From: a bacterium
GTDB lineage: Bacteria; Patescibacteriota; Minisyncoccia; Phycocordibacterales; UBA1006
DNA: 64,000 bases
NCBI GenBank assembly: GCA_030433255.1
Contig: JAUIMI010000002.1
Span: 65,177 to 129,176 of the forward strand
Direction of reading: 5' to 3'
Each line of letters begins with the position of its first letter. Position 1 is the first letter of the stretch. The notes below the pieces were generated by a model that had not been told where the DNA came from, searched no databases, and was given only the letters and a program-made list of their open reading frames with translations. The position numbers were made by a program, and so were the translations under genes. Positions 22,561 through 34,792 of the stretch are shown here, piece by piece.

Positions 22561-24690
22561 CTACATTTGAGCTGGTGTATGATGATTTTCTATTTCCTCA
22601 CGAACACGTCGTAGTTTTTGAGACATATCAATATGAGGGTTTTGTTTTTGATGTTCATATAATTCTGACAAATCGTCACTAAAACGTTTAAAGGTTTTAT
22701 GGGTTTCAGCAAAATCTTCTGAAGCATCAAACATATCTTCGGCTTGTGTATGTTTTAACAAATCAAGAATGGTTGTTTGAACCAGTTTAATATTATGACG
22801 AATATCTTTCTCTGGGTTTAGTGTTTGTTCATCTTCAAGTTTACGTAAGTAATCAATTAAGAGTGAAATTTCAACACTTTTTGTATTAAATAAGGCTTGA
22901 GGATTCATTGACTGAGTATTAATGATTGGTGTTGTATCAAACGTTTCATTGTTATGAGAGGTATCATCCGCGTCTGTTTTTGTAATATTTTTAATATACA
23001 AATCAACCACTTTTTTAACTTCTTCTAAGCTTGTTGATCCGTTTAAGATTTTAATAACCCCATCTTCTCGCATATTTAATAAGCCTTGTTTTTCTGCAAC
23101 ACGGCGAACTTCTTGCTCTGATGGTTCCTTACCAAGAAGCTCTTCAATAAGCTCATCAGTAATGATTGCTTCAAATAACCCAATTCGACCCTTGTACCCT
23201 GTTCCATTACATACATCACAACCACGACCTCTGGTAAGCATAATTTCTTGGTCTACTGCAATATTGTATTCATGAATTGGTTTTCCGTTTTTAACTGCCT
23301 CTTTTAAAATATCACGTAACAGTTCTTCTTCCTCTGGTGTTGGTGATTCTTGATATTTACAATTTTGACAAACCTTTCTCACTAAACGTTGTGCCAATGA
23401 TACCGATAGTGCGGCGGCAAGAATTTGTGGAGAAACTCCTAAATCAATTAGACGTGGAATAACCCCAGCAGCACTGTTCGTATGTAATGTTGAAAGTACC
23501 AAGTGCCCCGTCAGTGAGGCATTAACAGCAATTGAAGCTGTTTCCCCATCACGAATCTCTCCAACCATAACAATATCTGGATCCTGACGTAGTGCTGCAC
23601 GAAGACCAGAGAGAAAATCATATCCCTTACTACGATTTACCTGCGTCTGACTAATACCTTCTAGGTGGTATTCAATAGGGTCTTCAATGGTAAGGATTTT
23701 AACTTCTGGGTTATAGACCTTATTCATAAATGAATACAGTGTTGTTGTCTTACCAGAACCTGTTGGTCCTGTGGTTAAAATCATCCCGTTTGGTTTATCA
23801 ATTTCTTTTAGTAAAATTTCAAATAACCGTGGTTCAATACCAAGATTTTCTAATCCAACCTTAATACCATCAGGATTCAAAATACGCATTACGAACGATT
23901 CTCCATAGGCACTTGGGATAACAGAAACACGCACTTCAATTTCTTTACCATCATAATCAATAGTAAAACGACCATCTTGAGCGTTTTTCGTTTGGGTAAT
24001 TTTCATCTCTGAAAGAAGCTTAATCCGAGAAAGAAGCTTTCGGTACGATTCGTGATCAAAAACGCTAATATCTTGTAGTACACCATCTTGTCTAAAACGC
24101 AAACGAACCTGTTCATCTTGGGCTTCAATATGAATATCTGAAGATTTTGTTGCAATAGCTCCACCAAAAATAATCTCCATGATGCGAGTTGTTTGTTTTG
24201 CACCACCTGCGGTAAACACTTTTTCTAGTTCTCCTGAAATATCTTTATTTGTTTTAATGTTTTGGGCGATTTTTTCCAACTCTTCTGCGGAAATATCTAA
24301 CATTCCACCTTGAGTCATAATTGCATGTGAAATGTCTGCATATCTATCCCAAGCTTTTTCAAGACTTCTTTGGGAAACCATATGAACACCAAGAGTGTAT
24401 TTTTCTGAAAGAGTTTCTAGAACCTTCTTTGTTTCAGGGAGATTGGGTGATTTTACTCCAAGATATAAATCCTTTCCTACAATTTTAAAAGGAGCAATAC
24501 GTGAATTACGTGCTTGATCTTCAGGAAGAGTTGCTAGCGCATCAGTTTCAATATTGGTACCAGATAAATCTATATACGGAAGATTAAATTTCTGAGCAAT
24601 ACGCTCTACAAAAGACTCTTCTTCTTTGTTTTTGATTTCTGTAATTTTTTTAGCTTGATTCGTATTATCAAAATTAACCATAGTACCCAT
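22561..24690 (-). CDS. pilB: type IV pilus assembly ATPase PilB (GspE/PilB family) with about a 150-aa C-terminal extension
   Basis: GspII_E N-domain; Walker A LTTGPTGSGKTTTLYS; Asp box ILTIEDPIEY; VGEIRD; tetracysteine CQNC...CDVC. Confidence 0.85.
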   Translation of the reverse strand: MGTMVNFDNTNQAKKITEIKNKEEESFVERIAQKFNLPYIDLSGTNIETDALATLPEDQARNSRIAPFKIVGKDLYLGVKSPNLPETKKVLETLSEKYTLGVHMVSQRSLEKAWDRYADISHAIMTQGGMLDISAEELEKIAQNIKTNKDISGELEKVFTAGGAKQTTRIMEIIFGGAIATKSSDIHIEAQDEQVRLRFRQDGVLQDISVFDHESYRKLLSRIKLLSEMKITQTKNAQDGRFTIDYDGKEIEVRVSVIPSAYGESFVMRILNPDGIKVGLENLGIEPRLFEILLKEIDKPNGMILTTGPTGSGKTTTLYSFMNKVYNPEVKILTIEDPIEYHLEGISQTQVNRSKGYDFLSGLRAALRQDPDIVMVGEIRDGETASIAVNASLTGHLVLSTLHTNSAAGVIPRLIDLGVSPQILAAALSVSLAQRLVRKVCQNCKYQESPTPEEEELLRDILKEAVKNGKPIHEYNIAVDQEIMLTRGRGCDVCNGTGYKGRIGLFEAIITDELIEELLGKEPSEQEVRRVAEKQGLLNMREDGVIKILNGSTSLEEVKKVVDLYIKNITKTDADDTSHNNETFDTTPIINTQSMNPQALFNTKSVEISLLIDYLRKLEDEQTLNPEKDIRHNIKLVQTTILDLLKHTQAEDMFDASEDFAETHKTFKRFSDDLSELYEHQKQNPHIDMSQKLRRVREEIENHHTPAQM

Positions 24691-24954
24691 AGTATACTAT
24701 ATATAGGTAGGAAATTATATGCATAAAAAATCACTCGTTATATAATAACGAGTGATTTTTTATTAAGTCCATAAAACTCTAAATACCCAGAAAAAAACTT
24801 TAAAATAAAGGATGACTAGACTTCAACGAGATAATCAGTGTGGTCACTACCAGGGTGAGCACCAATCATTCCTATCCGCAGAGCCAAATTCGCGAGATCT
24901 GATTATTTAGAGATTTATAAACTCAATAATGTTAATGTACGACTTAACTGTTTA

Positions 24955-24986
24955 TAATATTATCATAATGAAAATATTTGTCAAGT
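24955..24986 (-). promoter_or_regulatory. sigma70-like promoter for pilB, with about a 260-nt leader
   Basis: Minus strand: ACTTGACAA, a 16-nt spacer, TAATAT. Confidence 0.4.
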
Positions 24987-25171
24987 TATTTACTTACCTG
25001 CAAAACAAGTTAGTGCTATAAATATAACACAGTCAGATAAACTGACCAGCAGCGGCTGTGTATAATATGTGAATAAGTGTTTTTTGTCAACACAGCCTAT
25101 ACAAAATAACATAAATACAATTATTCTGTCAATAAACCAAATATATTTTTTAAAATGATATAATAGGAATC

Positions 25172-26155
25172 ATGTCAGATATACCAACAACACAACTCCT
25201 TGATCCACAATTGCGGCCCAATTCTTGGGATGAATACATTGGACAACAAGCAATAAAAGACAACCTCCATATTCTATTAACAGCTGCCGCTGGCCGAAAA
25301 CAACAACCTGAACATATTTTATTCTATGGACCACCTGGGTTAGGAAAAACAACCCTCTCCCACCTTATTGCAAAAGAAATGAATACCGAAATTAAAATAA
25401 CCTCAGGACCAGCTATAGAAAAAGTAGGTGATCTTGCGAGTATTCTTACTAACCTTAGTTCTGGTGATATCTTATTTATTGATGAAATTCATCGATTAAA
25501 TACAAATATTGAAGAGGTTCTCTACCCTGCTATGGAATCCGGAGTATTAGATATTATTATTGGTAAGGGTCCATCAGCACGAACTATTCAATTAGACCTA
25601 CCACCATTTACATTAATTGCGGCGACAACTAAAATTGCGAGTTTATCAGCACCATTACGTTCTCGTTTTTCTGGTGGAGTGTTTAAACTAGAATTTTATA
25701 GTAACATAGAGATGGAAAAAATTATTTACCAATCTGCTGGTAAATTAGGTATTGAAATAACCGACGGTGGAGTACATGCGATTGCATCTCGTAGTCGTTC
25801 AACACCACGAACCGCAAACTATTTTCTAAAACGTGTTCGCGATTACGCAGAGGTTCACAACCAAAAAATAAATGAAGAAACAGTATTAGCTGCACTACAT
25901 ATGATTGGTGTTGATGAACTTGGTCTTCGTCAAACCGATCGTGATGTACTATTAACTATTATTGATAAATTTAACGGTGGGCCTGTTGGGGTAAAAACAA
26001 TAGCAACCGCAACACACGAAGAAACTGATTCCATCGAAAATGTTATAGAACCATACCTTATTCAAAAAGGATTATTGGAGCTAACACCACGCGGACGAAT
26101 CGCAACAAAAGAAGCCTACAACCATTTTGGAAAGGAGTTTGTTGAGAAAAAATAA
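25172..26155 (+). CDS. ruvB: Holliday junction ATP-dependent DNA helicase RuvB
   Basis: Walker A GPPGLGKTTLSHLIA, Walker B ILFIDEIHRL, RuvB C-terminal winged-helix domain; 327 aa. Confidence 0.9.
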   Translation: MSDIPTTQLLDPQLRPNSWDEYIGQQAIKDNLHILLTAAAGRKQQPEHILFYGPPGLGKTTLSHLIAKEMNTEIKITSGPAIEKVGDLASILTNLSSGDILFIDEIHRLNTNIEEVLYPAMESGVLDIIIGKGPSARTIQLDLPPFTLIAATTKIASLSAPLRSRFSGGVFKLEFYSNIEMEKIIYQSAGKLGIEITDGGVHAIASRSRSTPRTANYFLKRVRDYAEVHNQKINEETVLAALHMIGVDELGLRQTDRDVLLTIIDKFNGGPVGVKTIATATHEETDSIENVIEPYLIQKGLLELTPRGRIATKEAYNHFGKEFVEKK

Positions 26156-26185
26156 ACCACTATTATAAATAGTGGTTTTGTGTTT

Positions 26186-27064
26186 TTAAATTGCTTCTAA
26201 ACATCTTTGTTTATCTAAATCAGTGATAGAGATTTCCATTGAATTACTTACAAGATAAACTTCTAATTGATGAAGAGCACTTCTTTGTCCTTTTAAACTA
26301 AGAAATGTAATAGCCTCTGAAATAACTTTTTTTGAGGCTCCTAAGTAAATAGAATGTAGTATTTTTTTTACTTCTTTACTGGTAATAAAATACATAACCA
26401 TAGAATCAATTCTTTCTTTACTTGGTTTAATATTAAATTTCTCTAATTTATTTTTTTTATCAAAATAATGCTTATAAAAATAAAAAAATAATTTATCAAT
26501 ACTTTTTTGAGATAAATAATTAGATTTTTCTTTTAATATAGGTAGTAAATTATCTAATAAATAGTTAGGTTCATTTTTTAATAGGGATGTAATAACTACA
26601 TCCATGGTTTCATGGTTTTCTATTAGAAACGAGAGTTTTTTTAAATCATATTTTGATTTATTTTTAAGAAAATCTATACTATTTATTTTTATATTTTTTG
26701 CACCATTTTTATAAAGAAAACCCGCGGCTTCATAAGCTGAATTTTTTAAAGTTTTTTCTAGTTGTAAATTCAAAACATTCTTGCTTATATTAAATACAGG
26801 AAAAACTTTTTTTAAACCAGTGGTGAAACAAGAGTAATCAATATTGTTAAACACAAAGTTTTCAAATAAATCACCTTTTTCCTTTTGAGAAAGTTTATAA
26901 TTATATTTTTTTAAACACTCTTCAAGTTTATAATAATCACCTTTTTCAACAGATGATTTAATTAAAAGTTCATAAATCATTTTTTTTCGTTCTTTGGAAA
27001 AAGTAAAAAATAAAGTTATTTCTAGTCCAAAAATAGTACGTAAAAATTTATTCCATTTTTTCAT
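26186..27064 (-). CDS. hypothetical Lys-rich protein, extremely AT-rich ORF
   Basis: 292-aa ORF. Its composition is markedly more AT- and Lys-rich than its neighbours. Confidence 0.35.
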   Translation of the reverse strand: MKKWNKFLRTIFGLEITLFFTFSKERKKMIYELLIKSSVEKGDYYKLEECLKKYNYKLSQKEKGDLFENFVFNNIDYSCFTTGLKKVFPVFNISKNVLNLQLEKTLKNSAYEAAGFLYKNGAKNIKINSIDFLKNKSKYDLKKLSFLIENHETMDVVITSLLKNEPNYLLDNLLPILKEKSNYLSQKSIDKLFFYFYKHYFDKKNKLEKFNIKPSKERIDSMVMYFITSKEVKKILHSIYLGASKKVISEAITFLSLKGQRSALHQLEVYLVSNSMEISITDLDKQRCLEAI

Positions 27065-27162
27065 TATTATTTTTTTTAAGTTAATTTAAATTAATTAAAT
27101 CATAAATAATTATTTTTACAATATCTTGCACTTAGAAACATTCCCTATTACACTATTTTCAT

Positions 27163-27690
27163 ATGGCAGGACATAACAAATGGTCAAAAATTAAACATAA
27201 AAAAGCAGCAACCGACGCAAAGAAATCAAAAATATTTGGAAAACTCGTTCGTCTTATCCAAGTTGAAGCAAAAAAATCTAACGGAGATGTGAATGCTCCA
27301 GGGTTAGCAGCAGCAATAGCAAAGGCAAACAAGGAAAACATGCCAAAAGATAATATTGAACGAGCTATTAAAAAAGCATCTGAAGCTGGAGACACTACAC
27401 CGGTACTCTATGAAGCTTATGGTCCAGGTGGTGTTGGAATTATTATTACTGGATTAACTGATAACAATAACAGAATGAGTGCGGAAATTAAACACACCCT
27501 ATCTAAACTAAATGGTTCACTTGGAACATCTGGTTCGGTATCATGGAATTTTACCCAAGATGAAAATCGAGATTGGGTTCCAAATACTACCTTAGAAATT
27601 GATGAAGATACTGGAACTAAATTAGAAAATCTTATCGAAGCATTAGAGGAAAATGATGATGTCCAAGATGTTTATCATAACGCAGAATAA
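27163..27690 (+). CDS. yebC: YebC/PmpR-family protein, unusually short (175 aa)
   Basis: N-terminal MAGHNKWSKIKHKKAATDAKKSKIFGKL and C-terminal ENDDVQDVYHNAE match YebC ends. It is about 70 aa shorter than typical. Confidence 0.7.
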   Translation: MAGHNKWSKIKHKKAATDAKKSKIFGKLVRLIQVEAKKSNGDVNAPGLAAAIAKANKENMPKDNIERAIKKASEAGDTTPVLYEAYGPGGVGIIITGLTDNNNRMSAEIKHTLSKLNGSLGTSGSVSWNFTQDENRDWVPNTTLEIDEDTGTKLENLIEALEENDDVQDVYHNAE

Positions 27691-27716
27691 AAAACACCTA
27701 TGTAGGTGTTTTTTAT
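27688..27716. terminator. intrinsic terminator
   Basis: A-run, ACACCTA..TAGGTGT, T-run. Confidence 0.45.
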
Positions 27717-27719
27717 TCT

Positions 27720-30635
27720 TTAAATATCAAGAGTAAATGATATTTCTTTTGGTATTTTTAATCCGTCTTCAGTTGTTGCGATAACTCGGACAATATTATT
27801 CTCTTCAAAATATGGTAATGAGTTTGGAACAAATTCAAAACCAAATGGATCAGATTCATCTGAAGCAATAAATGCATTATTGATAAATAATTGAACTAAA
27901 GAAATATCATCTTCATTTTCAATATTTCGCAAGCGAATTTCAATAACATCATCAATGTTATATACATCAGTTTCATCAATACCTCTAATCTCAAAATCTA
28001 CTGTATCAATATTTCCCTCTGCTATTTGACCATCAGCTAGATGGACATCATCATATTCTGTTGGGATATCTAATTCAATACCTAAAATACTCGATAAGTG
28101 TTCCTGCACAAAGAGCTGTACTCCATACTCCCAATTTTCATACTGGGAATCATTACGCGCATCATTACGTATTGTTGGATTATCTTTATTAATCCAATGA
28201 AGAATCGTATGTGGATCTGGTTGTGGAACCTCTATTTTGGTTTCTTCTGGTGTATATTCCGTTGCAAGTTTACCAGAAACAGAATCAATATAAATTGTTG
28301 TTCCTCCATACCAATCACCCTGAATCATGTTAGGTAATGAAGAGAAGTTTTCAGGTAGATCATAATCTTTGAATGATGAATTATCGTAATTTTTAATAAC
28401 TTCATCCATAAATTGACGCCATGGTTTACCAGAAATAGATGAACCTTTTTTCATAGGACTATTATCATTGTTTCCTGTCCAAACTCCAACAGCTACATCT
28501 GGTGTATATCCAATTAACCATGCATCTCGATTATCATTAGTAGTACCTGTTTTTCCAGCAACATCACGTTCTCCGAAGTAAAGGAATGATTGCGAACCAA
28601 AAAGTGGTGTTCGTGCAACATTGTCAGATAAAATACTATTAACCATACGTGCTGCATTTTTTTCAATAACCTGTTCTTCTTGTGAAAGGTATTTTTCTAA
28701 TACTTTTCCGTTTACATCAGTAACCTCAAGAATTCCTGTTGGCTTGTTGTATTCACCATCATTTGCAAAAACACTATACGCACTCGTCATTTCAAGAAGT
28801 GAAACCTCTCCACCACCAAGAACAAGACCAAGACCATAAAAATCAGGTGATTGAGTTAGTGACGTAATACCCATATCTCGTGCTTTTTGAATAACCCGAG
28901 TTAAACCAGCAAGGTAGTTAACCTTAATAGCAGGAATATTTCTTGATTGAGCTAATGCATTTCTAAATGTCATAGGTCCATTAAATTTGAAATCATAATT
29001 ATTCGGAGAATAACAACCATTTTCACTCGTTGTATCGGTTGCTTCACAACGACTATTGAATTGGGTTTCAGTATCAAAAATAGTACTCTCAGGAAGATAC
29101 CCACGCTCAAAGGCGGTTGCATACGCTATTGGTTTAAATGATGACCCTGGTTGCCTTAGGGCGGTTACCACATTAAAGTTCCCATCGAACTCTTCAGTAT
29201 CAAAATAATCACGAGAACCCACCATGGTAATAATATGACCAGTTTCTGATTCAATAGCTACCAAACCAGCGTTTGAAGCATCGTATGTTTCCTCTACTTC
29301 TTCTATGTGATTTTTAATAATTTCCTCTGCTTGCTGTTGAAGTTCATAATCAAGAGTTGTAATTACATGCAAACCTCCATTTTGAACCATATCAACACCA
29401 TATGTTTCCTCTAATTGTGCTCGTACATATTGCACAAAATGAAGTGACTTAGCATACCCTTCTTCTTCTGGAATAAACTCAACAACCTCATCAAGAGCGG
29501 TCCTATATTCCTCATCGCTAATGAAACCATATTTTTTCATCTCTCCTAATACAACACGCTGACGCTGATCAAGTTTATCTTTATTATTACCGTATGGAGA
29601 ATAGTAGGTTGGTAGATTTGGAATAGCTGCAAGGTACGCTGATTGGGCAATAGAAACTTCTGAAGCTGGAACACCAAAGAAACGTTTTGAGGCTTCTTGT
29701 ATACCGTAAATAGTACCACCATAAGGAGCTTCGTTAAGATAAATCTCAAGAATTTCATCTTTTGTTAATTTATCTTCAATTTTATACGCTAATACCCACT
29801 CTTTAACCTTTCGGGCTATGCGTTGGTCACGATTAAGGAGTGTATTTTTTACTACCTGCTGTGTTAGTGTTGAACCACCAGCAGTTCCTGCATCAGATAA
29901 TCCTGCTTTTGATAAAAGTGTTTGAGTAACAGCACGAATAGTTGATTTCCAAACCACACCATTATGTTCATAAAAAGAATGATCTTCGATGGCAATAATA
30001 GCATCTTTTACATGTTGATTAATATCATCAAAATCAACAACAGTACGTCTAATATTTTCATGAATATCATACAAAAGAATCTCTCCTGTTTTATCATAAA
30101 TCTTTGTTGAGTTTGAAATTTTTCTGTTTTCAAAATTAGCAACACTTGGAATTTCCAAGGTTGAAAACCATACAAAAAAGAAACCAGCAGCAGCAATAAG
30201 AGAGATAACAGCAAAAATAATTAATCCCTTTAAAATATTCCAGAAGTTTTTCTTTTTGTGTTTTTTTGTTTTTAATCTTTGAGTGGTAGATTTTTGTTTT
30301 TTTGTTTTTAGATTTTTAATTTGAGGCATAGTAATAAGAGATTTTTTTTCTTGAAAAAATAAACGTATATCTAAAAATAATATTGAAATTCTTGTTTTTA
30401 TTCGTAAGAAAAATTCTTTAATAAAAAACCAAACACTTGAACATAAAATACCTATGGTTTTAAATATATTTGAAAATTTCAATATCGGGGGTGTTTTTTT
30501 AGATTTTTTTAATGAAACCTCTCTTAATTTCATATACCGCCTATGTTTTTGAGCGAGTAACCGTTGTCGTTTTAAGTACTCACGGGTATGAATATCTTGT
30601 AATTTTTTACGAGGAATCATACACCTATTATACAT
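27720..30635 (-). CDS. class A penicillin-binding protein (PBP1A; glycosyltransferase plus transpeptidase) with a C-terminal extension
   Basis: GT51 motif EDHSFYEHNGV; transpeptidase SxxK (PGSSFKP), SxN and KTG (AGKTGTT). The real start may be the internal Met at 30329 (MPQIKNLKTKK.. followed by the TM). Confidence 0.8.
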   Translation of the reverse strand: MYNRCMIPRKKLQDIHTREYLKRQRLLAQKHRRYMKLREVSLKKSKKTPPILKFSNIFKTIGILCSSVWFFIKEFFLRIKTRISILFLDIRLFFQEKKSLITMPQIKNLKTKKQKSTTQRLKTKKHKKKNFWNILKGLIIFAVISLIAAAGFFFVWFSTLEIPSVANFENRKISNSTKIYDKTGEILLYDIHENIRRTVVDFDDINQHVKDAIIAIEDHSFYEHNGVVWKSTIRAVTQTLLSKAGLSDAGTAGGSTLTQQVVKNTLLNRDQRIARKVKEWVLAYKIEDKLTKDEILEIYLNEAPYGGTIYGIQEASKRFFGVPASEVSIAQSAYLAAIPNLPTYYSPYGNNKDKLDQRQRVVLGEMKKYGFISDEEYRTALDEVVEFIPEEEGYAKSLHFVQYVRAQLEETYGVDMVQNGGLHVITTLDYELQQQAEEIIKNHIEEVEETYDASNAGLVAIESETGHIITMVGSRDYFDTEEFDGNFNVVTALRQPGSSFKPIAYATAFERGYLPESTIFDTETQFNSRCEATDTTSENGCYSPNNYDFKFNGPMTFRNALAQSRNIPAIKVNYLAGLTRVIQKARDMGITSLTQSPDFYGLGLVLGGGEVSLLEMTSAYSVFANDGEYNKPTGILEVTDVNGKVLEKYLSQEEQVIEKNAARMVNSILSDNVARTPLFGSQSFLYFGERDVAGKTGTTNDNRDAWLIGYTPDVAVGVWTGNNDNSPMKKGSSISGKPWRQFMDEVIKNYDNSSFKDYDLPENFSSLPNMIQGDWYGGTTIYIDSVSGKLATEYTPEETKIEVPQPDPHTILHWINKDNPTIRNDARNDSQYENWEYGVQLFVQEHLSSILGIELDIPTEYDDVHLADGQIAEGNIDTVDFEIRGIDETDVYNIDDVIEIRLRNIENEDDISLVQLFINNAFIASDESDPFGFEFVPNSLPYFEENNIVRVIATTEDGLKIPKEISFTLDI

Positions 30636-30670
30636 AGAACTTTTTTAATACAAATAAAAAAACACTTAAA

Positions 30671-31150
30671 TTAATTAAATGTTTTTTGTATAGCAAAGAA
30701 GGTAATTCCAATAGCTATAGCATCAATCTCATCATCTTTTCTTTTTTTATCTTTTAAAGAAATGAGTTTATATACCATATTTTGCATATCTTTTTTTGAA
30801 GCTTTTCCATATCCAGTAACAGCAACCTTTATTTGATTTGGAGTGTATTCAAATATAGGGATATTACTATCGCTTGCTTGAAAAATAATAACTCCACGAG
30901 CTTCACTTACTTGTAATGCTGTTTTAGTATTTTTACTAAAAAATAAACCTTCTATAGCCAGTGCATCAATAGAATATTTTTTAATTACATCTCTTATATG
31001 TGTACCTATTTCAAATAAACGGTTATTAAAAGATGTTTCTTGTAAGGTTGTAAAACATTCTGAATGTATACATATTTCTTTCTGGTGTTGTTTTTCTAAA
31101 ACAGCAATACCAACACGCTCGTACCCAGGATCAATAGCGAGAACTCTCAT
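30671..31150 (-). CDS. ruvC: Holliday junction resolvase RuvC
   Basis: MRVLAIDPGYERVGIAVLE N-terminus with the catalytic Asp; 159 aa. Confidence 0.85.
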   Translation of the reverse strand: MRVLAIDPGYERVGIAVLEKQHQKEICIHSECFTTLQETSFNNRLFEIGTHIRDVIKKYSIDALAIEGLFFSKNTKTALQVSEARGVIIFQASDSNIPIFEYTPNQIKVAVTGYGKASKKDMQNMVYKLISLKDKKRKDDEIDAIAIGITFFAIQKTFN

Positions 31151-31152
31151 GG

Positions 31153-31404
31153 TTATATAATATCACGAATAAAAACCTCTTTATCTTTTGCTTTTTCTAA
31201 AATCTCTCGTTTGTACCTTTTAATATGACTTCGCTGTAGAGGGGATATATGTTTAAAAGAAAGTATTCCTTTTTGAATCTTAATATCTTTCAAGTGAAGT
31301 GAGGGAATATATTCTTGTAAAAGTGTTAATATTTTTTGTGAATCTTGAAATTCTTTATTATTAATCTGTATATTTTTAATAAACTTTTGAATATTAAAAT
31401 CCAT
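31153..31404 (-). CDS. small protein downstream of dnaN, possibly DUF721/DciA-like
   Basis: 83 aa. Its position immediately after dnaN and the KGILSFKHISPLQRSHIK pattern resemble DUF721. Weak. Confidence 0.3.
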   Translation of the reverse strand: MDFNIQKFIKNIQINNKEFQDSQKILTLLQEYIPSLHLKDIKIQKGILSFKHISPLQRSHIKRYKREILEKAKDKEVFIRDII

Positions 31405-31406
31405 AT

Positions 31407-32507
31407 TTATCTATTCATTGGCATTATTAAATAAAGAAATGAAGAATCCCCTACACTACGAATAACACATGGTTTATTTTTTTCAGTAAATGAAAAATTA
31501 ATACTATCGCCATGTAATGCTGGAAATGCATCTGATAAATATTTATGATTTAAATACATTTCAATATCTCCACCGGTAATAGCAGCATCAACAGAGGTAT
31601 CATTTTCTCCAACATCAGTATTACGGGAATGAATATGTAGTTGACCTTTTTGTGAATCTGTTTTAATCAGAATCTGATTAAAATTATCAGAAAAAACATT
31701 TACCAACCGAAGTGATTGTATAAGTTCATCTTTTAAAACAATACTATTTACCAATGATTCTTGTGGAATGATTTGTTTATAATCAGGGTAATTACCATCA
31801 ACAATACGTGAGGTAAAGTAAATATTTTCTGATTGAATAGATAATTGATTTTTCCCTATAGATAACTGAACAGAATCTGTAATACCATTAAATATTTTTA
31901 TACACTCTTGAATATTTTTAATAGGAATAATAACCCCTGAAATATCTAAGTTACCTTTTGTTACTATTCTTTTTTCAGCAAGTCTAAATGAATCCGTTGA
32001 AACAAAAACAAGTTCATTATTTTCACTGTAAATATATACACTTGATATTTCAGGTTTAATATCTGAAATAGAGGCACTATATACAACACTCTTAACACCA
32101 TCAAGAATCGTTTCAATAGGAAAATTAATTTCAGTAGCATCTTCTACTCGAGGTAGTGTTGGAAAATCAGCATGAGGGAATAATTTAATATTCATTTCTG
32201 ATTTCTCTGTTGAAATATGTAAGGTGTTTTCAATAACCTCAAAGGTAACATTATAATCACCCTGAAGAGAATTTATAATTTGACTAAAGACATCAAGTTT
32301 AACTGATAACTCACCTTCTTCTTTAATTTTTACTGGAATAGTTATTTCAACACCAACATGTAGATTGGTTGATCGAAGAGTGAGAATATTATCCCTTGCA
32401 ATAAGGAGAATATTTTCAAGTATTGGTAGACTTAAATTTTTTGCTGAAACTTTTTGTATACGAGATACAGCATCTTTAATTTTTTCAACGGTTGTTTCTA
32501 TTTTCAT
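31407..32507 (-). CDS. dnaN: DNA polymerase III beta sliding clamp
   Basis: Three-domain beta-clamp length (366 aa), N-terminus MKIETTVEKIKDAVSRIQKV, located downstream of dnaA. Confidence 0.85.
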   Translation of the reverse strand: MKIETTVEKIKDAVSRIQKVSAKNLSLPILENILLIARDNILTLRSTNLHVGVEITIPVKIKEEGELSVKLDVFSQIINSLQGDYNVTFEVIENTLHISTEKSEMNIKLFPHADFPTLPRVEDATEINFPIETILDGVKSVVYSASISDIKPEISSVYIYSENNELVFVSTDSFRLAEKRIVTKGNLDISGVIIPIKNIQECIKIFNGITDSVQLSIGKNQLSIQSENIYFTSRIVDGNYPDYKQIIPQESLVNSIVLKDELIQSLRLVNVFSDNFNQILIKTDSQKGQLHIHSRNTDVGENDTSVDAAITGGDIEMYLNHKYLSDAFPALHGDSINFSFTEKNKPCVIRSVGDSSFLYLIMPMNR

Positions 32508-32731
32508 AATATTAGTTAATTATATATAAAATATATTTATTATTACTATTAGGGTTGTTTATACTGTGGATTAGTTAAATACGTGTTTATATATAAGGAT
32601 TATTTAGGTTTTTTATATGTGGATAGGTAAGATGATATTTTGTTTATAATATAGATTTATACACAGGATAACTTACACCCTTGTGTATAAGAATAGTGTA
32701 TACACATTTTTTATATAAATTATTAACAGGT
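32508..32731. promoter_or_regulatory. candidate oriC (dnaA-dnaN intergenic): DnaA-box cluster plus AT-rich unwinding element
   Basis: 9-mers with at most one mismatch to TTATCCACA at 32566-32574, 32629-32637, 32658-32666 and 32682-32690; a TATATATAAAATATATTTATTATT tract. Confidence 0.5.
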
Positions 32732-34090
32732 TTATACATCAAGAATAGCTCTTATTTGTTCTATTTCTTGGGTAACATTAGGGTCATCTTTTATCATTTC
32801 TGTAACTTTTTCATAAGAATGAATTACTGTTGTATGGTCGCGACCTCCAATTTCCTTACCTATTGCTGGATACGAAATATTGAAATATTCTCGTAATATA
32901 TACATTGTTATTTGGCGTACATACACTATCTCTTTTTTTCTTGTTTTATCGTATATTTTCTGTGGGTCTAGTGTGTAAAAACCAGCTATTATTTTAATAA
33001 TTTCATCTAATGCAAGATGTTTTTTAGGTTTTATATTGTTTTTAATTAATGTTTTTACCTCATTAATAGATAGTTTTCGAGATCGTAATTCTGTTTGAAT
33101 ACTAATTGCATTTAATATACCCTCTAACTCTCTAATATTTCCTTCAAGGTTATTTGCTAAGAAATCAACCACTTCATCACTAATAGGTGTTTTCTTTTGC
33201 GTTGCTTTTGTTTTAAGGAGTGCAGCACGTGATTCGTAATCAGGTTTCGTTACATCAACAATCATTCCTGCAGAAAAACGTGATCGTAATCTATCTTCTA
33301 AACCAATAATATAATTAGGATGTTTATCTGAAGAAAAGATTATTTGTTTACCTTTGTCATAGAGAATATTGAATAAATGGAATAATTCTTCTTGTAGTTT
33401 TTCTTTTCCTGAGAAGAATTGAATATCATCCATAATAAGTACATCGTAAGCCCTGTATTTATTTTTAAAAGAATTAATACTATTGTTTTTTAAGGCATTT
33501 ACATAATCTTGAGAAAATTTTTCTGAACTTGTATAGAAAATATTAGTGTTTTCGTTGTCTTTATATATTTTATTCCCTGTTGCTTGTATTAAGTGAGTTT
33601 TTCCTAGTCCAGTTGATCCATAGATGAATAATGGGTTATATACACCAGGTTTTTTAATAATTGCTTGGGCTGCAGAATACGCAAGTTCATTAAAAGGCCC
33701 AACAACAAACGATTGAAATGAGTATTTCTCATTTAAGTTATTTGTTTTATTAATAGATATATTCTCTAAAGGAAGTGAATTACCTTGCTGTAGTATTGAT
33801 TGTGGTTGTTTGGTGGTATTAGTATCTTCTTTCTCAGTATTCTTCTTTTTTACAATATATTCAATGTTTTTAATAGAATTATCGAAATTTCGTAGTTTTT
33901 CTAAAATCATTTTATGAAATTTAGTATACAACCATTCTTTATTGAATTCATTTGGTACACCAATATAAAAAATAGAATCCTCTTGTTTTAGTGGGAATGT
34001 TTTTTTAAACCATGTGTTGAAGTTTGGTCGAGATATCTCAAGTTCAATTTCTGTTAATGTGTCTTTCCAGATTTTTTCAATAGTATTCAT
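32732..34090 (-). CDS. dnaA: chromosomal replication initiator DnaA
   Basis: AAA+ Walker A GSTGLGKTHL, Walker B VLIMDDIQF, sensor and C-terminal HTH (RDHTTVIHSYEKV). Confidence 0.9.
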   Translation of the reverse strand: MNTIEKIWKDTLTEIELEISRPNFNTWFKKTFPLKQEDSIFYIGVPNEFNKEWLYTKFHKMILEKLRNFDNSIKNIEYIVKKKNTEKEDTNTTKQPQSILQQGNSLPLENISINKTNNLNEKYSFQSFVVGPFNELAYSAAQAIIKKPGVYNPLFIYGSTGLGKTHLIQATGNKIYKDNENTNIFYTSSEKFSQDYVNALKNNSINSFKNKYRAYDVLIMDDIQFFSGKEKLQEELFHLFNILYDKGKQIIFSSDKHPNYIIGLEDRLRSRFSAGMIVDVTKPDYESRAALLKTKATQKKTPISDEVVDFLANNLEGNIRELEGILNAISIQTELRSRKLSINEVKTLIKNNIKPKKHLALDEIIKIIAGFYTLDPQKIYDKTRKKEIVYVRQITMYILREYFNISYPAIGKEIGGRDHTTVIHSYEKVTEMIKDDPNVTQEIEQIRAILDV

Positions 34091-34123
34091 AGTAGCAGTA
34101 TGTATGTGTATTATAATATGAAT

Positions 34124-34171
34124 GTGGAAAAAAGGGAAAACTTGTGAAAATAGGAATAAAGCTGTGGATAA
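34124..34171. promoter_or_regulatory. DnaA boxes upstream of dnaA (and of rpmH)
   Basis: A perfect TGTGGATAA (reverse complement of TTATCCACA) at 34163-34171 and TGTGGAAAA at 34124-34132. Confidence 0.5.
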
Positions 34172-34282
34172 GTTTTTTATATAAATGTATATGTTTACCT
34201 AGGTTTGTGTACAGTATCTTGATTATTTTTGTTATTGTATTAGTATAATTACATTAATTAAGTACTAATTTATTTATTAATT

Positions 34283-34429
34283 ATGAAAGCAAAATCACAA
34301 ACTCTTCGAAAGCGTAAAAATCGTTCAATGAAGAAAAAACATGGGTTCCTATCTCGAATGAAAACTGCTGGAGGGCGAAAAACTCTTTTAAATCGTTTAC
34401 GAAAAGGTCGTAAAAAATTAAGCGTTTAG
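34283..34429 (+). CDS. rpmH: 50S ribosomal protein L34
   Basis: MKAKSQTLRKRKNRSMKKKHGFLSRMKTAGGRKTLLNRLRKGRKKLSV (48 aa). It is too short for the ORF track, and the rpmH-rnpA synteny is classic. Confidence 0.85.
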   Translation: MKAKSQTLRKRKNRSMKKKHGFLSRMKTAGGRKTLLNRLRKGRKKLSV

Positions 34430-34477
34430 TTATAAAAAACCTTTATATAAAAGGTTTTTTATAATATATACATAGAT

Positions 34478-34792
34478 ATGTTTAAAAAATCCAAAAGAAT
34501 AAATTCTCGTGAATTTACTACTGTTTTTAAAAAAGGAAAAAAATCATTTTCTTCTTTTTTCCAAATAATTACTTTTGGAGGAGAGTGTAAGGTGGCTGTT
34601 GTTATATCAAAAAAGAAAATCAAAAAAAGAATTCAAAGAAATAGAGAAAAAAGAAGAATTCTTCATGTGATAAAAAAAATAACAGAACAATACCCTTTAT
34701 CTACAAATATGATTATTTTTCTTCAAAAAGATACTCAAAATCTTACCTTTAATGAATTAGAGGAAGAATTACTATATAGTATAAAAAAATAG
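34478..34792 (+). CDS. rnpA: RNase P protein component
   Basis: 104 aa, basic; the AVVISKKKIKKRIQRNREKRR motif matches RnpA, and the gene follows rpmH. Confidence 0.75.
   Translation: MFKKSKRINSREFTTVFKKGKKSFSSFFQIITFGGECKVAVVISKKKIKKRIQRNREKRRILHVIKKITEQYPLSTNMIIFLQKDTQNLTFNELEEELLYSIKK

What the first reader, a model, noticed from the sequence alone, without database searches (positions are those of the whole stretch)
24795..24905. GC-rich (about 50%) structured island in the 260-nt pilB leader: candidate cis-regulatory RNA or small RNA
In an intergenic region that is otherwise 25-30% GC, about 100 nt (…GTGTGGTCACTACCAGGGTGAGCACCAATCATTCCTATCCGCAGAGCCAAATTCGCGAGATCTG…) stand out. They lie between the predicted pilB promoter (24955-24986) and a hairpin at 24729-24765 just upstream of the pilB start. 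pilB is the only gene it could regulate in cis. It does not match the SRP, tmRNA, RNase P or c-di-GMP riboswitch consensus as far as I can judge by eye.
Basis: seen in the sequence. Interest (0 to 1): 0.5.

Follow-up and report, generated by a model that had tools for sequence, protein, structure and literature searches.

The report
New rod-shaped small RNA gene
The GC-rich patch upstream of pilB is the core of a separate, conserved, about 200-nt structured small RNA gene of ultra-small (Paceibacteria/CPR) bacteria; it matches no catalogued RNA family, and its shape most resembles 6S RNA, the regulator that blocks RNA polymerase.

Summary
The island is real, but it is only the GC-richer centre of a larger RNA on the minus (pilB) strand, core 24758-24929. 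I found 27 homologues in Campbellbacteria/Paceibacteria genomes and metagenomes. Its secondary structure is strongly supported: 96% of cells pair, 33 of 47 pairs show compensatory changes, and the covariation score is 0.49 against at most 0.10 in slid controls.

pilB has a separate -10 element 9 nt before its likely ATG. In two divergent genomes the RNA is convergent with pilB, so it cannot be a pilB leader there.

The architecture is a ~30-bp closing stem, a central bubble with a near-invariant open 5' strand (UCUCGCGAAUU) and a small hairpin in the 3' strand, and an irregular apical arm. This is the layout of Firmicutes 6S-1-type RNAs. However, no Rfam model, including 6S, matches any copy tested.

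Verdict: a new, well-supported sRNA family. A 6S-like function (RNA polymerase sequestration) is the best guess but is unproven. The cis-regulatory pilB-leader reading is not supported.

The parts
24758..24929 (-). Core of the structured small RNA (172 nt). It runs closing stem, central bubble, apical arm, 3' bubble hairpin, closing stem.
   Evidence: Covariance model R1 scores 182 bits on the minus strand against 30 bits on the plus strand. R2 scores 178.6 bits and finds one copy in the window. Covariation is shown. Near-invariant G.U pairs fix the strand.
24898..24927 (-). 5' strand of the closing stem P1, including the inner extension UCAGA (24902-24898).
   Evidence: 14 of 21 pairs show compensatory changes. 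UCAGA/UCUGG changes to UUGGA/UCUAA in L002 and UCGGG/CUUGG in L015, read from the alignment.
24886..24897 (-). 5' strand of the central bubble, UCUCGCGAAUUU. It is unpaired and nearly invariant. It is proposed (inferred) to be the template/initiation region if the RNA works like 6S.
   Evidence: It is unpaired in the RNAalifold consensus. TCTCGCGA is identical in 26 of 27 members, and UCUC in all, including L048.
24813..24886 (-). Apical arm. P2 is UGGCU/AGUCA. The conserved internal loop is GGAUAGGA (24877-24870) opposite CUCGUUGAAG (24830-24821). P3 carries a near-invariant tandem U.G/G.U (UUGG/CUGA). P4 is UCAC/GUGA, with the 7-nt loop CCUGGUA (24854-24848).
   Evidence: All pairs of P2 and of P4 show compensatory changes, and cells are 96-100% paired.
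24791..24812 (-). 3' strand of the central bubble. It holds a mini-hairpin, CUUU (24810-24807) with AAAG (24801-24798), followed by a U-run.
   Evidence: Helix 6 has 3 of 4 pairs with compensatory changes. The hairpin is present in all members except L046.
24762..24791 (-). 3' strand of the closing stem: UCUGG (24791-24787), then UAUUUAGAGUUUUAUGGACUUAAU (24785-24762).
24725..24761 (-). Intrinsic terminator of the RNA: a 17-bp perfect hairpin plus U-run. It is symmetrical, so it could also stop plus-strand transcription.
   Evidence: An equivalent hairpin plus T-run of unrelated sequence follows the RNA in 24 of 25 scorable loci.
24957..24984 (-). Proximal promoter of the RNA: TTGACA, 16 nt, TG-n-TAATAT. 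The inferred start is near 24950.
   Evidence: TTGACA with a 16-17-nt spacer and an extended -10 is found in 23 of 26 loci, 6-47 nt upstream of the closing stem.
25021..25090 (-). Conserved upstream module on the same strand. It has TTGACA-17-TATTAT overlapping two tandem DnaA-box-like 9-mers (25076-25068 and 25065-25057), then a hairpin of variable sequence (25048-25030), then TGTTATATT, which looks like an extended -10 (25029-25021). It may be additional promoters for the RNA.
   Evidence: The two boxes lie 11 nt apart in 23 of 26 loci. Its function is inferred only.
24691..24696 (-). TATACT, a -10-like element of pilB's own promoter. It lies 9 nt before the second ATG (24681-24679), which is the likely true pilB start. 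This implies a leaderless or near-leaderless pilB mRNA.
   Evidence: Read from the sequence. TATACT/TACAAT/TATAAT lies 6-12 nt before the pilB ATG in the ten related pilB-upstream regions read by eye, and no Shine-Dalgarno sequence was seen.

Best explanation
The element is an independent gene for a ~175-230-nt structured small RNA on the minus strand. It is transcribed from its own strong sigma-70-type promoter and ends at its own intrinsic terminator. It is not part of the pilB mRNA.

The RNA folds into a rod. A ~30-bp closing stem is formed by its two ends. A central bubble follows: its 5' strand (UCUCGCGAAUU) is open and almost invariant, and its 3' strand is U-rich and carries a small hairpin. 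An irregular apical arm with a conserved purine-rich internal loop completes it.

The most likely mechanism is that of 6S RNA, specifically the Firmicutes 6S-1 layout. The rod with its bubble would mimic an open promoter and occupy the active site of the housekeeping RNA polymerase holoenzyme. The conserved 5' bubble strand and the adjoining closing-stem strand would then serve as template for short product RNAs (predicted to start GAGA(U/C)C...) that release the enzyme.

Shown here: the gene boundaries as sequence signals, the strand, the conserved structure, single copy in the held sequence, and independence from pilB in two genomes. Inferred only: polymerase binding, product-RNA synthesis and any physiological role.
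For: Structure:
- RNAalifold finds 47 pairs, 26 with compensatory changes.
- On 26 sequences 96.1% of cells pair and 33 of 47 pairs have changes on both sides. The covariation score is 0.492 against 0.06-0.10 for slid partners, and 0 of 500 shuffles reach it.
- MFE folds of divergent members (L045, L048, L011, L015, L046) give the same layout, with z = -7.8 and -9.2 for L045 and L048.

Strand:
- The model scores 182 bits on the minus strand and 30 on the plus strand.
- The U.G, G.U and G.U pairs are invariant or nearly so.

Own transcription unit:
- TTGACA plus an extended -10 is present in 23 of 26 loci, and a terminator in 24 of 25.
- pilB has its own -10 element 6-12 nt before its ATG.

Not a leader:
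- In L045 and L048 the RNA is convergent with pilB. L045 keeps a perfect TTGACA-16-TGcTATAAT promoter and L048 a TTGACA / extended -10 promoter further upstream.
- In L046 ruvB is absent but the RNA is kept.

Copy number: one copy in the 64-kb window, searched with filters off.

6S-like layout: 6S RNAs are ~200-nt rods with a central bubble between a closing and an apical arm. Firmicutes 6S-1-type RNAs have an open 5' bubble strand and a 3' bubble hairpin, and there is usually one gene per genome (PMC8876501). All of these hold here.
Against: - No Rfam 6S model (or any other family) matches the window copy or the L045 and L046 copies, even at E <= 10 on ~200-nt inputs. Homology to 6S is therefore not shown.
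- The 5' bubble strand is short (11-12 nt).
- Folding with the presumed template strand blocked did not reveal a conserved rearrangement helix.
- All 27 copies lie next to pilB. This could mean a pilus-related role rather than a global one, although all come from one clade with conserved gene order.
- There is no expression or binding data.
Confidence: 0.45

Rival explanations
1. It is an independent structured small RNA with a function unrelated to RNA polymerase. For example, it could be the RNA partner of an unknown protein that binds the conserved GGAUAGGA/CUCGUUGAAG internal loop and the tandem G.U. Or it could be a trans-acting regulator that uses the invariant single-stranded UCUCGCGAAUU as a seed, possibly tied to type IV pilus expression.
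For: - It has the same gene boundaries, structure and covariation as the best explanation.
- The near-invariant unpaired segments and the conserved internal loop are typical of protein- or RNA-contact sites.
- There is no 6S match in Rfam.
- It lies next to pilB in 27 of 27 loci.
Against: - No complementary target for the bubble sequence is found in the 64-kb window beyond chance: 7 matches with up to 3 mismatches against 4.6 expected, and the only exact one is the element itself.
- A 30-bp closing stem and a ~200-nt rod are not needed for a seed-pairing sRNA.
- No candidate partner gene travels with the RNA other than pilB and ruvB, whose linkage is broken or inverted in L045, L046 and L048.
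Confidence: 0.4
2. It is a cis-acting leader (riboswitch or attenuator) of pilB. The structured domain would sense a signal and control read-through of the hairpin at 24761-24725 into pilB.
For: - In 25 of 27 loci the order is promoter, structured RNA, terminator, pilB on one strand. This is the classic layout of a transcription-attenuating riboswitch.
- Known riboswitch classes (c-di-GMP) occur upstream of pilus genes in other phyla (my own knowledge).
Against: - L045 and L048 have the RNA downstream of pilB and convergent with it.
- The terminator stems are long, perfect and unrelated in sequence between relatives, and I saw no conserved alternative (antiterminator) pairing with the RNA. The ~30-bp closing stem would be constitutively stable.
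- pilB has its own -10 element placed for a leaderless mRNA and no Shine-Dalgarno sequence, so read-through transcripts would be poorly translated (inference).
- There is no Rfam riboswitch match.
Confidence: 0.08
3. It is a chance GC fluctuation or a non-functional remnant with no RNA product.
For: The GC island alone is not extreme relative to the whole window (92nd percentile).
Against: It is conserved in 27 loci down to 54% PilB identity, with 33 compensatory pairs, conserved promoters and conserved terminators.
Confidence: 0.01

Closest known systems
6S RNA, especially Firmicutes 6S-1 type (Rfam RF00013; B. subtilis bsrA)
   Same: - It is a stand-alone RNA of about 200 nt and a rod: a closing stem formed by the 5' and 3' ends, and an irregular apical arm.
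- The central bubble has an open 5' strand and a small pre-formed hairpin in the 3' strand.
- It has a strong sigma-70-type promoter, and one copy is seen (definition from PMC8876501).
   Different: - There is no detectable sequence or covariance-model similarity to any Rfam 6S model.
- The 5' bubble strand is shorter (11-12 nt).
- The apical arm has a highly conserved GGAUAGGA/CUCGUUGAAG loop and a tandem G.U that I do not know from 6S.
- No conserved product-RNA-induced rearrangement helix was predicted.
- Polymerase binding is untested.
Ms1 RNA of Actinobacteria (a 6S-like RNA that binds the RNA polymerase core)
   Same: It is a lineage-specific, 6S-like structured RNA that standard 6S models miss (PMC9130861, abstract seen).
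   Different: This is a different phylum, and no sequence comparison was made here. Which form of polymerase would be bound, if any, is unknown.
Transcription-attenuating riboswitches upstream of pilus genes (e.g. c-di-GMP-I/II)
   Same: In most loci the layout is promoter, structured domain, terminator hairpin, gene.
   Different: - There is no match to any riboswitch model.
- The RNA is convergent with pilB in two genomes.
- The closing stem is very long, and no antiterminator was seen.
- pilB has its own promoter signal.

Membership tests
6S RNA | Non-coding RNA of roughly 160-200 nt, encoded as its own gene | tested here: met
   The core is 172 nt. From the promoter to the T-run is about 225 nt. 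It has its own promoter and terminator in most of the 26 loci scored. No ORF of 40 aa or more overlaps it.
6S RNA | Rod-shaped secondary structure: a closing stem and an apical stem, both interrupted by small loops | tested here: met
   The consensus structure has 47 pairs, 96% of cells paired and 33 compensatory pairs.
6S RNA | Large central bubble. In 6S-1 type RNAs the 5' strand is open and the 3' strand has a hairpin. | tested here: met
   The 5' strand UCUCGCGAAUU is unpaired in the consensus. The 3' strand has a covarying mini-hairpin in 26 of 27 members. The comparison is to PMC8876501. The bubble is at the small end of the range.
6S RNA | Recognised by the curated 6S covariance models (Rfam RF00013 and relatives) | tested here: not met
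   No 6S hit at E <= 10 for the window copy or for the L046 and L045 copies, and none at gathering threshold.
6S RNA | Binds the housekeeping sigma RNA polymerase holoenzyme and templates short product RNAs | not testable with these tools
   This needs biochemistry or small-RNA sequencing. An in-silico block of the presumed template gave no conserved refolding, which is uninformative.
6S RNA | Usually one gene per genome | tested here: inconclusive
   There is one copy in the 64-kb window and one per fetched locus. Whole genomes could not be scanned.
Riboswitch / cis-acting 5' leader of pilB | Lies in the 5' untranslated region of the regulated gene in all members | tested here: not met
   In L045 and L048 the RNA is downstream of pilB and convergent with it.
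Riboswitch / cis-acting 5' leader of pilB | Expression platform whose terminator competes with part of the sensing domain | tested here: inconclusive
   The terminators are self-contained, differ in sequence between relatives and follow a ~30-bp closing stem. I saw no conserved alternative pairing by eye. There was no formal test.
Riboswitch / cis-acting 5' leader of pilB | Match to a known aptamer class (c-di-GMP-I/II and others) | tested here: not met
   Rfam searches.
SRP RNA / RNase P RNA / tmRNA / tRNA | Match to the family covariance model or to ARAGORN | tested here: not met
   By eye there is no GNRA-capped domain IV motif and no RNase P conserved regions.

The most novel reading that the evidence does not exclude
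This is the 6S-equivalent global transcription regulator of Paceibacteria (CPR), so diverged that no existing model finds it. Its expression would be wired to DnaA through two tandem DnaA boxes in an upstream promoter. That would link replication status, RNA polymerase availability and the neighbouring type IV pilus motor in ultra-small symbiotic bacteria.
Probability: 0.15. Interest if true: 0.75.

Novelty: new variant of a known kind. Interest (0 to 1): 0.55.

Why it matters
Almost nothing is known about regulatory RNAs in the Candidate Phyla Radiation. These bacteria have tiny genomes, few transcription factors and an obligate host-attached lifestyle. My two library searches found no paper that mentions both 6S RNA and these bacteria.

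A strongly expressed, single-copy, structurally constrained ~200-nt RNA kept in such reduced genomes is likely to be important. If it is their 6S RNA, it fills a gap in the distribution of a near-universal regulator, and its sequence gives an explicit, testable prediction for product RNAs. If it is not, it is an orphan structured RNA class with an unknown partner.

Practically, the covariance model can be used to annotate these genomes. It would also remove spurious protein calls such as the 71-aa 'gene' that overlaps the RNA in L046.

Tried and rejected
- **Rfam.** Gathering threshold on the whole window gave only 4 tRNAs. Four permissive scans of the element and of two divergent homologues gave only noise: miRNA and terminator look-alikes and MOSES4 at 14 bits.
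- **ARAGORN.** Nothing at the site.
- **Pattern scan of viral contigs.** 0 hits.
- **Metagenome pattern scan.** 29 stretches, 10 of them chance matches that lack the rest of the RNA.
- **Distant Parcubacteria locus L047** (PilB 44% identical, 1006-aa type) and the Pseudomonadota locus L003. No homologue with either model.
- **Trans target of the invariant bubble sequence in the window.** No more matches than chance.
- **Folding with the presumed product-RNA template blocked.** No conserved new helix. The first attempt was anchored on the wrong UCUC and was discarded.
- **By eye:**
  - K-turn and sarcin-ricin/loop E motifs in the GGAUAGGA/CUCGUUGAAG loop: the registers do not fit.
  - Hammerhead core: CUGAUGA...GAA occurs in L001 only and is not conserved.
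  - The alternative GGAU/AUCC pairing that single-sequence MFE prefers is broken in L006, L009 and L030 without compensation.
  - The 17-codon ORF inside the window copy has a start codon that is not conserved.
- **Literature.** No paper in the library links 6S RNA with CPR, Patescibacteria, Saccharibacteria or Parcubacteria.

Full report
**Observation.** The quoted sequence is at the stated place. It sits in a 481-nt spacer (24691-25171). On one side is a minus-strand 709-aa PilB/GspE-type ATPase (22561-24690; Pfam T2SSE and MshEN on its homologues). On the other is a plus-strand RuvB (25172-26155). GC is 0.41 over 24795-24905 and 0.49 over the quoted inner part, against 0.25 for the rest of the spacer and 0.33 for the window. 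The promoter-like site (TTGACA-16-TAATAT preceded by TG, minus strand, 24984-24957) and the 17-bp perfect hairpin with T-run (24761-24725) are both real. On the minus strand, sequences at 24929-24898 pair with 24791-24762 to form a long AT-rich closing stem. The 172-nt core folds with z = -4.8.

**Known families.** Rfam at gathering threshold finds only four tRNAs in the window, and ARAGORN agrees. Permissive scans of the element report only noise. No SRP, RNase P, tmRNA, riboswitch or 6S model appears.

**Relatives.**
- A scan of species-representative genomes with PilB found two loci with the same element between ruvB and pilB: Candidatus Campbellbacteria and Paceibacterota. This places the window in the Paceibacteria (CPR/Patescibacteria).
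- Contigs encoding PilB homologues of 81-57% identity all carry it.
- A DNA pattern taken from the most conserved block found 19 further true copies in metagenomes, of which 13 had distinct sequences, plus 10 chance hits.
- A covariance model built from 24 sequences (R1) then found diverged copies in L046 (121 bits), L045 (72 bits) and L048 (63 bits with R1, 101 with R2).
- It found nothing in a distant Parcubacteria locus or in a Pseudomonadota locus.
- The window holds a single copy.

**Structure.** RNAalifold on 24 sequences predicts 47 pairs, 26 with compensatory changes. On the 26-sequence model-fitted alignment:
- 96.1% of cells form standard pairs.
- 33 of 47 pairs have changes on both sides.
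- The covariation score is 0.492, against 0.06-0.10 when the 3' partners are slid by 1-3 columns.
- No shuffle out of 500 reaches any observed measure (similar).

This alignment was fitted to the structure, which favours it. However, the independent MAFFT/RNAalifold result and single-sequence MFE folds of the most diverged members give the same layout.

The layout, from the outside in:
- **Closing stem** of about 26-30 bp. It includes an inner extension UCAGA/UCUGG that covaries in L002 and L015 and is continuous in L045.
- **Central bubble.** The 5' strand UCUCGCGAAUU is unpaired and almost invariant. The 3' strand is U-rich and carries a covarying mini-hairpin.
- **P2.**
- **Conserved internal loop**, GGAUAGGA opposite CUCGUUGAAG.
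- **P3**, with a near-invariant tandem U.G/G.U.
- **P4**, capped by CCUGGUA.

The near-invariant G.U pairs, and the score of 182 bits on the minus strand against 30 on the plus strand, fix the transcribed strand as that of pilB.

**Transcription unit.** A perfect TTGACA, a 16-17-nt spacer and a TG-extended -10 lie 6-47 nt upstream of the closing stem in 23 of 26 loci. A hairpin plus T-run follows the stem within about 17-43 nt in 24 of 25 scorable loci, and the stem sequences are unrelated. These are the marks of a strongly expressed stand-alone RNA gene.

Between the terminator and pilB, every related locus I read has a -10-like hexamer (TATACT, TACAAT or TATAAT) 6-12 nt before the ATG and no Shine-Dalgarno sequence. 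I infer that pilB has its own promoter and a leaderless or near-leaderless mRNA. I also infer that its true start in the window is the second ATG (24681), which matches the alignments to relatives.

**Context test.**
- In 24 of 27 loci the order is ruvB (divergent), RNA, pilB (same strand). This clade keeps the whole dnaA-dnaN-ruvC-PBP-yebC-ruvB | pilB neighbourhood, so that linkage alone says little.
- In L046, ruvB is replaced by an unrelated gene, but the upstream module, the RNA and pilB stay together.
- In L045 and L048 (PilB 56% and 54% identical) the RNA lies downstream of pilB on the opposite strand, convergent with it. In L045 a perfect TTGACA-16-TGcTATAAT promoter lies directly upstream of the closing stem. 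In L048 a TTGACA plus extended -10 promoter lies about 90 nt upstream, with a terminator-like hairpin between it and the RNA.

In those two genomes the RNA cannot be a 5' leader of pilB. Together with the promoter and terminator signals, this rejects the '260-nt pilB leader' reading. The RNA is nevertheless next to pilB in all 27 loci, and I cannot explain that beyond shared ancestry.

**Mechanism.** By the description in PMC8876501, 6S RNAs have these features:
- They are about 200 nt long and rod-shaped.
- A central bubble sits between a closing arm and an apical arm, both interrupted by small loops.
- They have little sequence conservation between lineages, and usually one gene per genome.
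- In Firmicutes 6S-1-type RNAs the consensus shows an open 5' bubble strand and a 3' bubble hairpin.

All of these hold here. The canonical TTGACA/TATAAT promoters in these genomes also show a conventional housekeeping holoenzyme for such a mimic to target.

On this reading, the extreme conservation of the 5' bubble strand and the adjoining closing-stem strand (...CUCUAAACAAUCAGAUCUC...) reflects its use as a template. The predicted product RNA starts GAGA(U/C)C in every member.

This is inference. No Rfam 6S model recognises any copy, so I do not file the RNA as a member of the 6S family. Blocking the presumed template in silico produced no conserved refolding. A different protein partner or a pilus-related role is almost as likely. 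My estimates:
- About 0.9 that this is an independent structured sRNA gene.
- About 0.45 that it acts like 6S RNA.
- About 0.4 that it has another trans function.
- Under 0.1 that it is a pilB leader.

**Novelty.** The family is absent from Rfam 15. My two library searches found no paper that mentions both 6S RNA and CPR bacteria. I rate it a new variant of a known kind: a lineage-specific, 6S-like structured sRNA. It would be useful for annotating these genomes and gives a concrete, testable lead on transcription control in ultra-small bacteria.

Noticed in passing
window 25021-25090 (minus strand); same block in L001, L002, L004, L006, L007, L009, L011-L013, L016-L018, L024, L029, L030, L033, L039, L044, L046: There is a second conserved module upstream of the RNA promoter. 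It has TTGACA-17-TATTAT overlapping two tandem DnaA-box-like 9-mers 11 nt apart (TTATTCACA at 25076-25068 and TTATACACA at 25065-25057). A hairpin of variable sequence follows, then TGTTATAYT, which looks like an extended -10. The two boxes are present in 23 of 26 loci. In L048, by eye, they are in inverted orientation, and L045 has none. TTATACACA also occurs twice in the presumed dnaN-dnaA spacer (32657-32690), and TTATCCACA occurs upstream of the presumed dnaA (34163). The module could be DnaA-controlled extra promoters for the RNA. Read on the plus strand as TGTGTATAAT, it could be the ruvB promoter.
   Followed up: partly
window 24679-24696 (minus strand): pilB appears to be leaderless. 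A conserved TATACT-type -10 lies 9 nt before the second ATG (24681) and there is no Shine-Dalgarno sequence, whereas ruvB has AGGA 5 nt before its ATG. The ORF start at 24690 is probably 3 codons too long.
   Followed up: partly
L046 1260-1475 (minus strand): A 71-aa 'gene' with no Pfam hit was called on the strand opposite the RNA and overlaps it. It is most likely a spurious protein call caused by the unannotated RNA.
   Followed up: no
L047 14040-14160 (plus strand), upstream of ruvB in a distant Parcubacteria contig: A GC-richer hairpin of about 110 nt (AGUCAUC...UUAUUCCCAC GCGAAUUGC ... GUGGGAAUAAAGGAUGACU) contains CGCGAAUUG and gives only weak model scores (16 and 12 bits, E 0.2-0.6). 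It is not shown to be related and may be a different small RNA.
   Followed up: no
L046 1310-1345 and L048 3033-3062 (strand of the RNA): In these two diverged loci a terminator-like hairpin with a U-run sits between the upstream promoter and the RNA. In the other loci a TTGACA promoter is directly adjacent. How the RNA is transcribed in these two is unclear.
   Followed up: no
window 22561-34478: The window spans the replication-origin neighbourhood. The presumed order is rnpA/rpmH, dnaA (32732-34090), dnaN (31407-32507), ruvC, a penicillin-binding protein (27720-30635), yebC, ruvB, then the RNA and pilB. This matches the Pfam-annotated synteny in L012, L013 and L015. The window ORFs themselves were not individually checked.
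   Followed up: no
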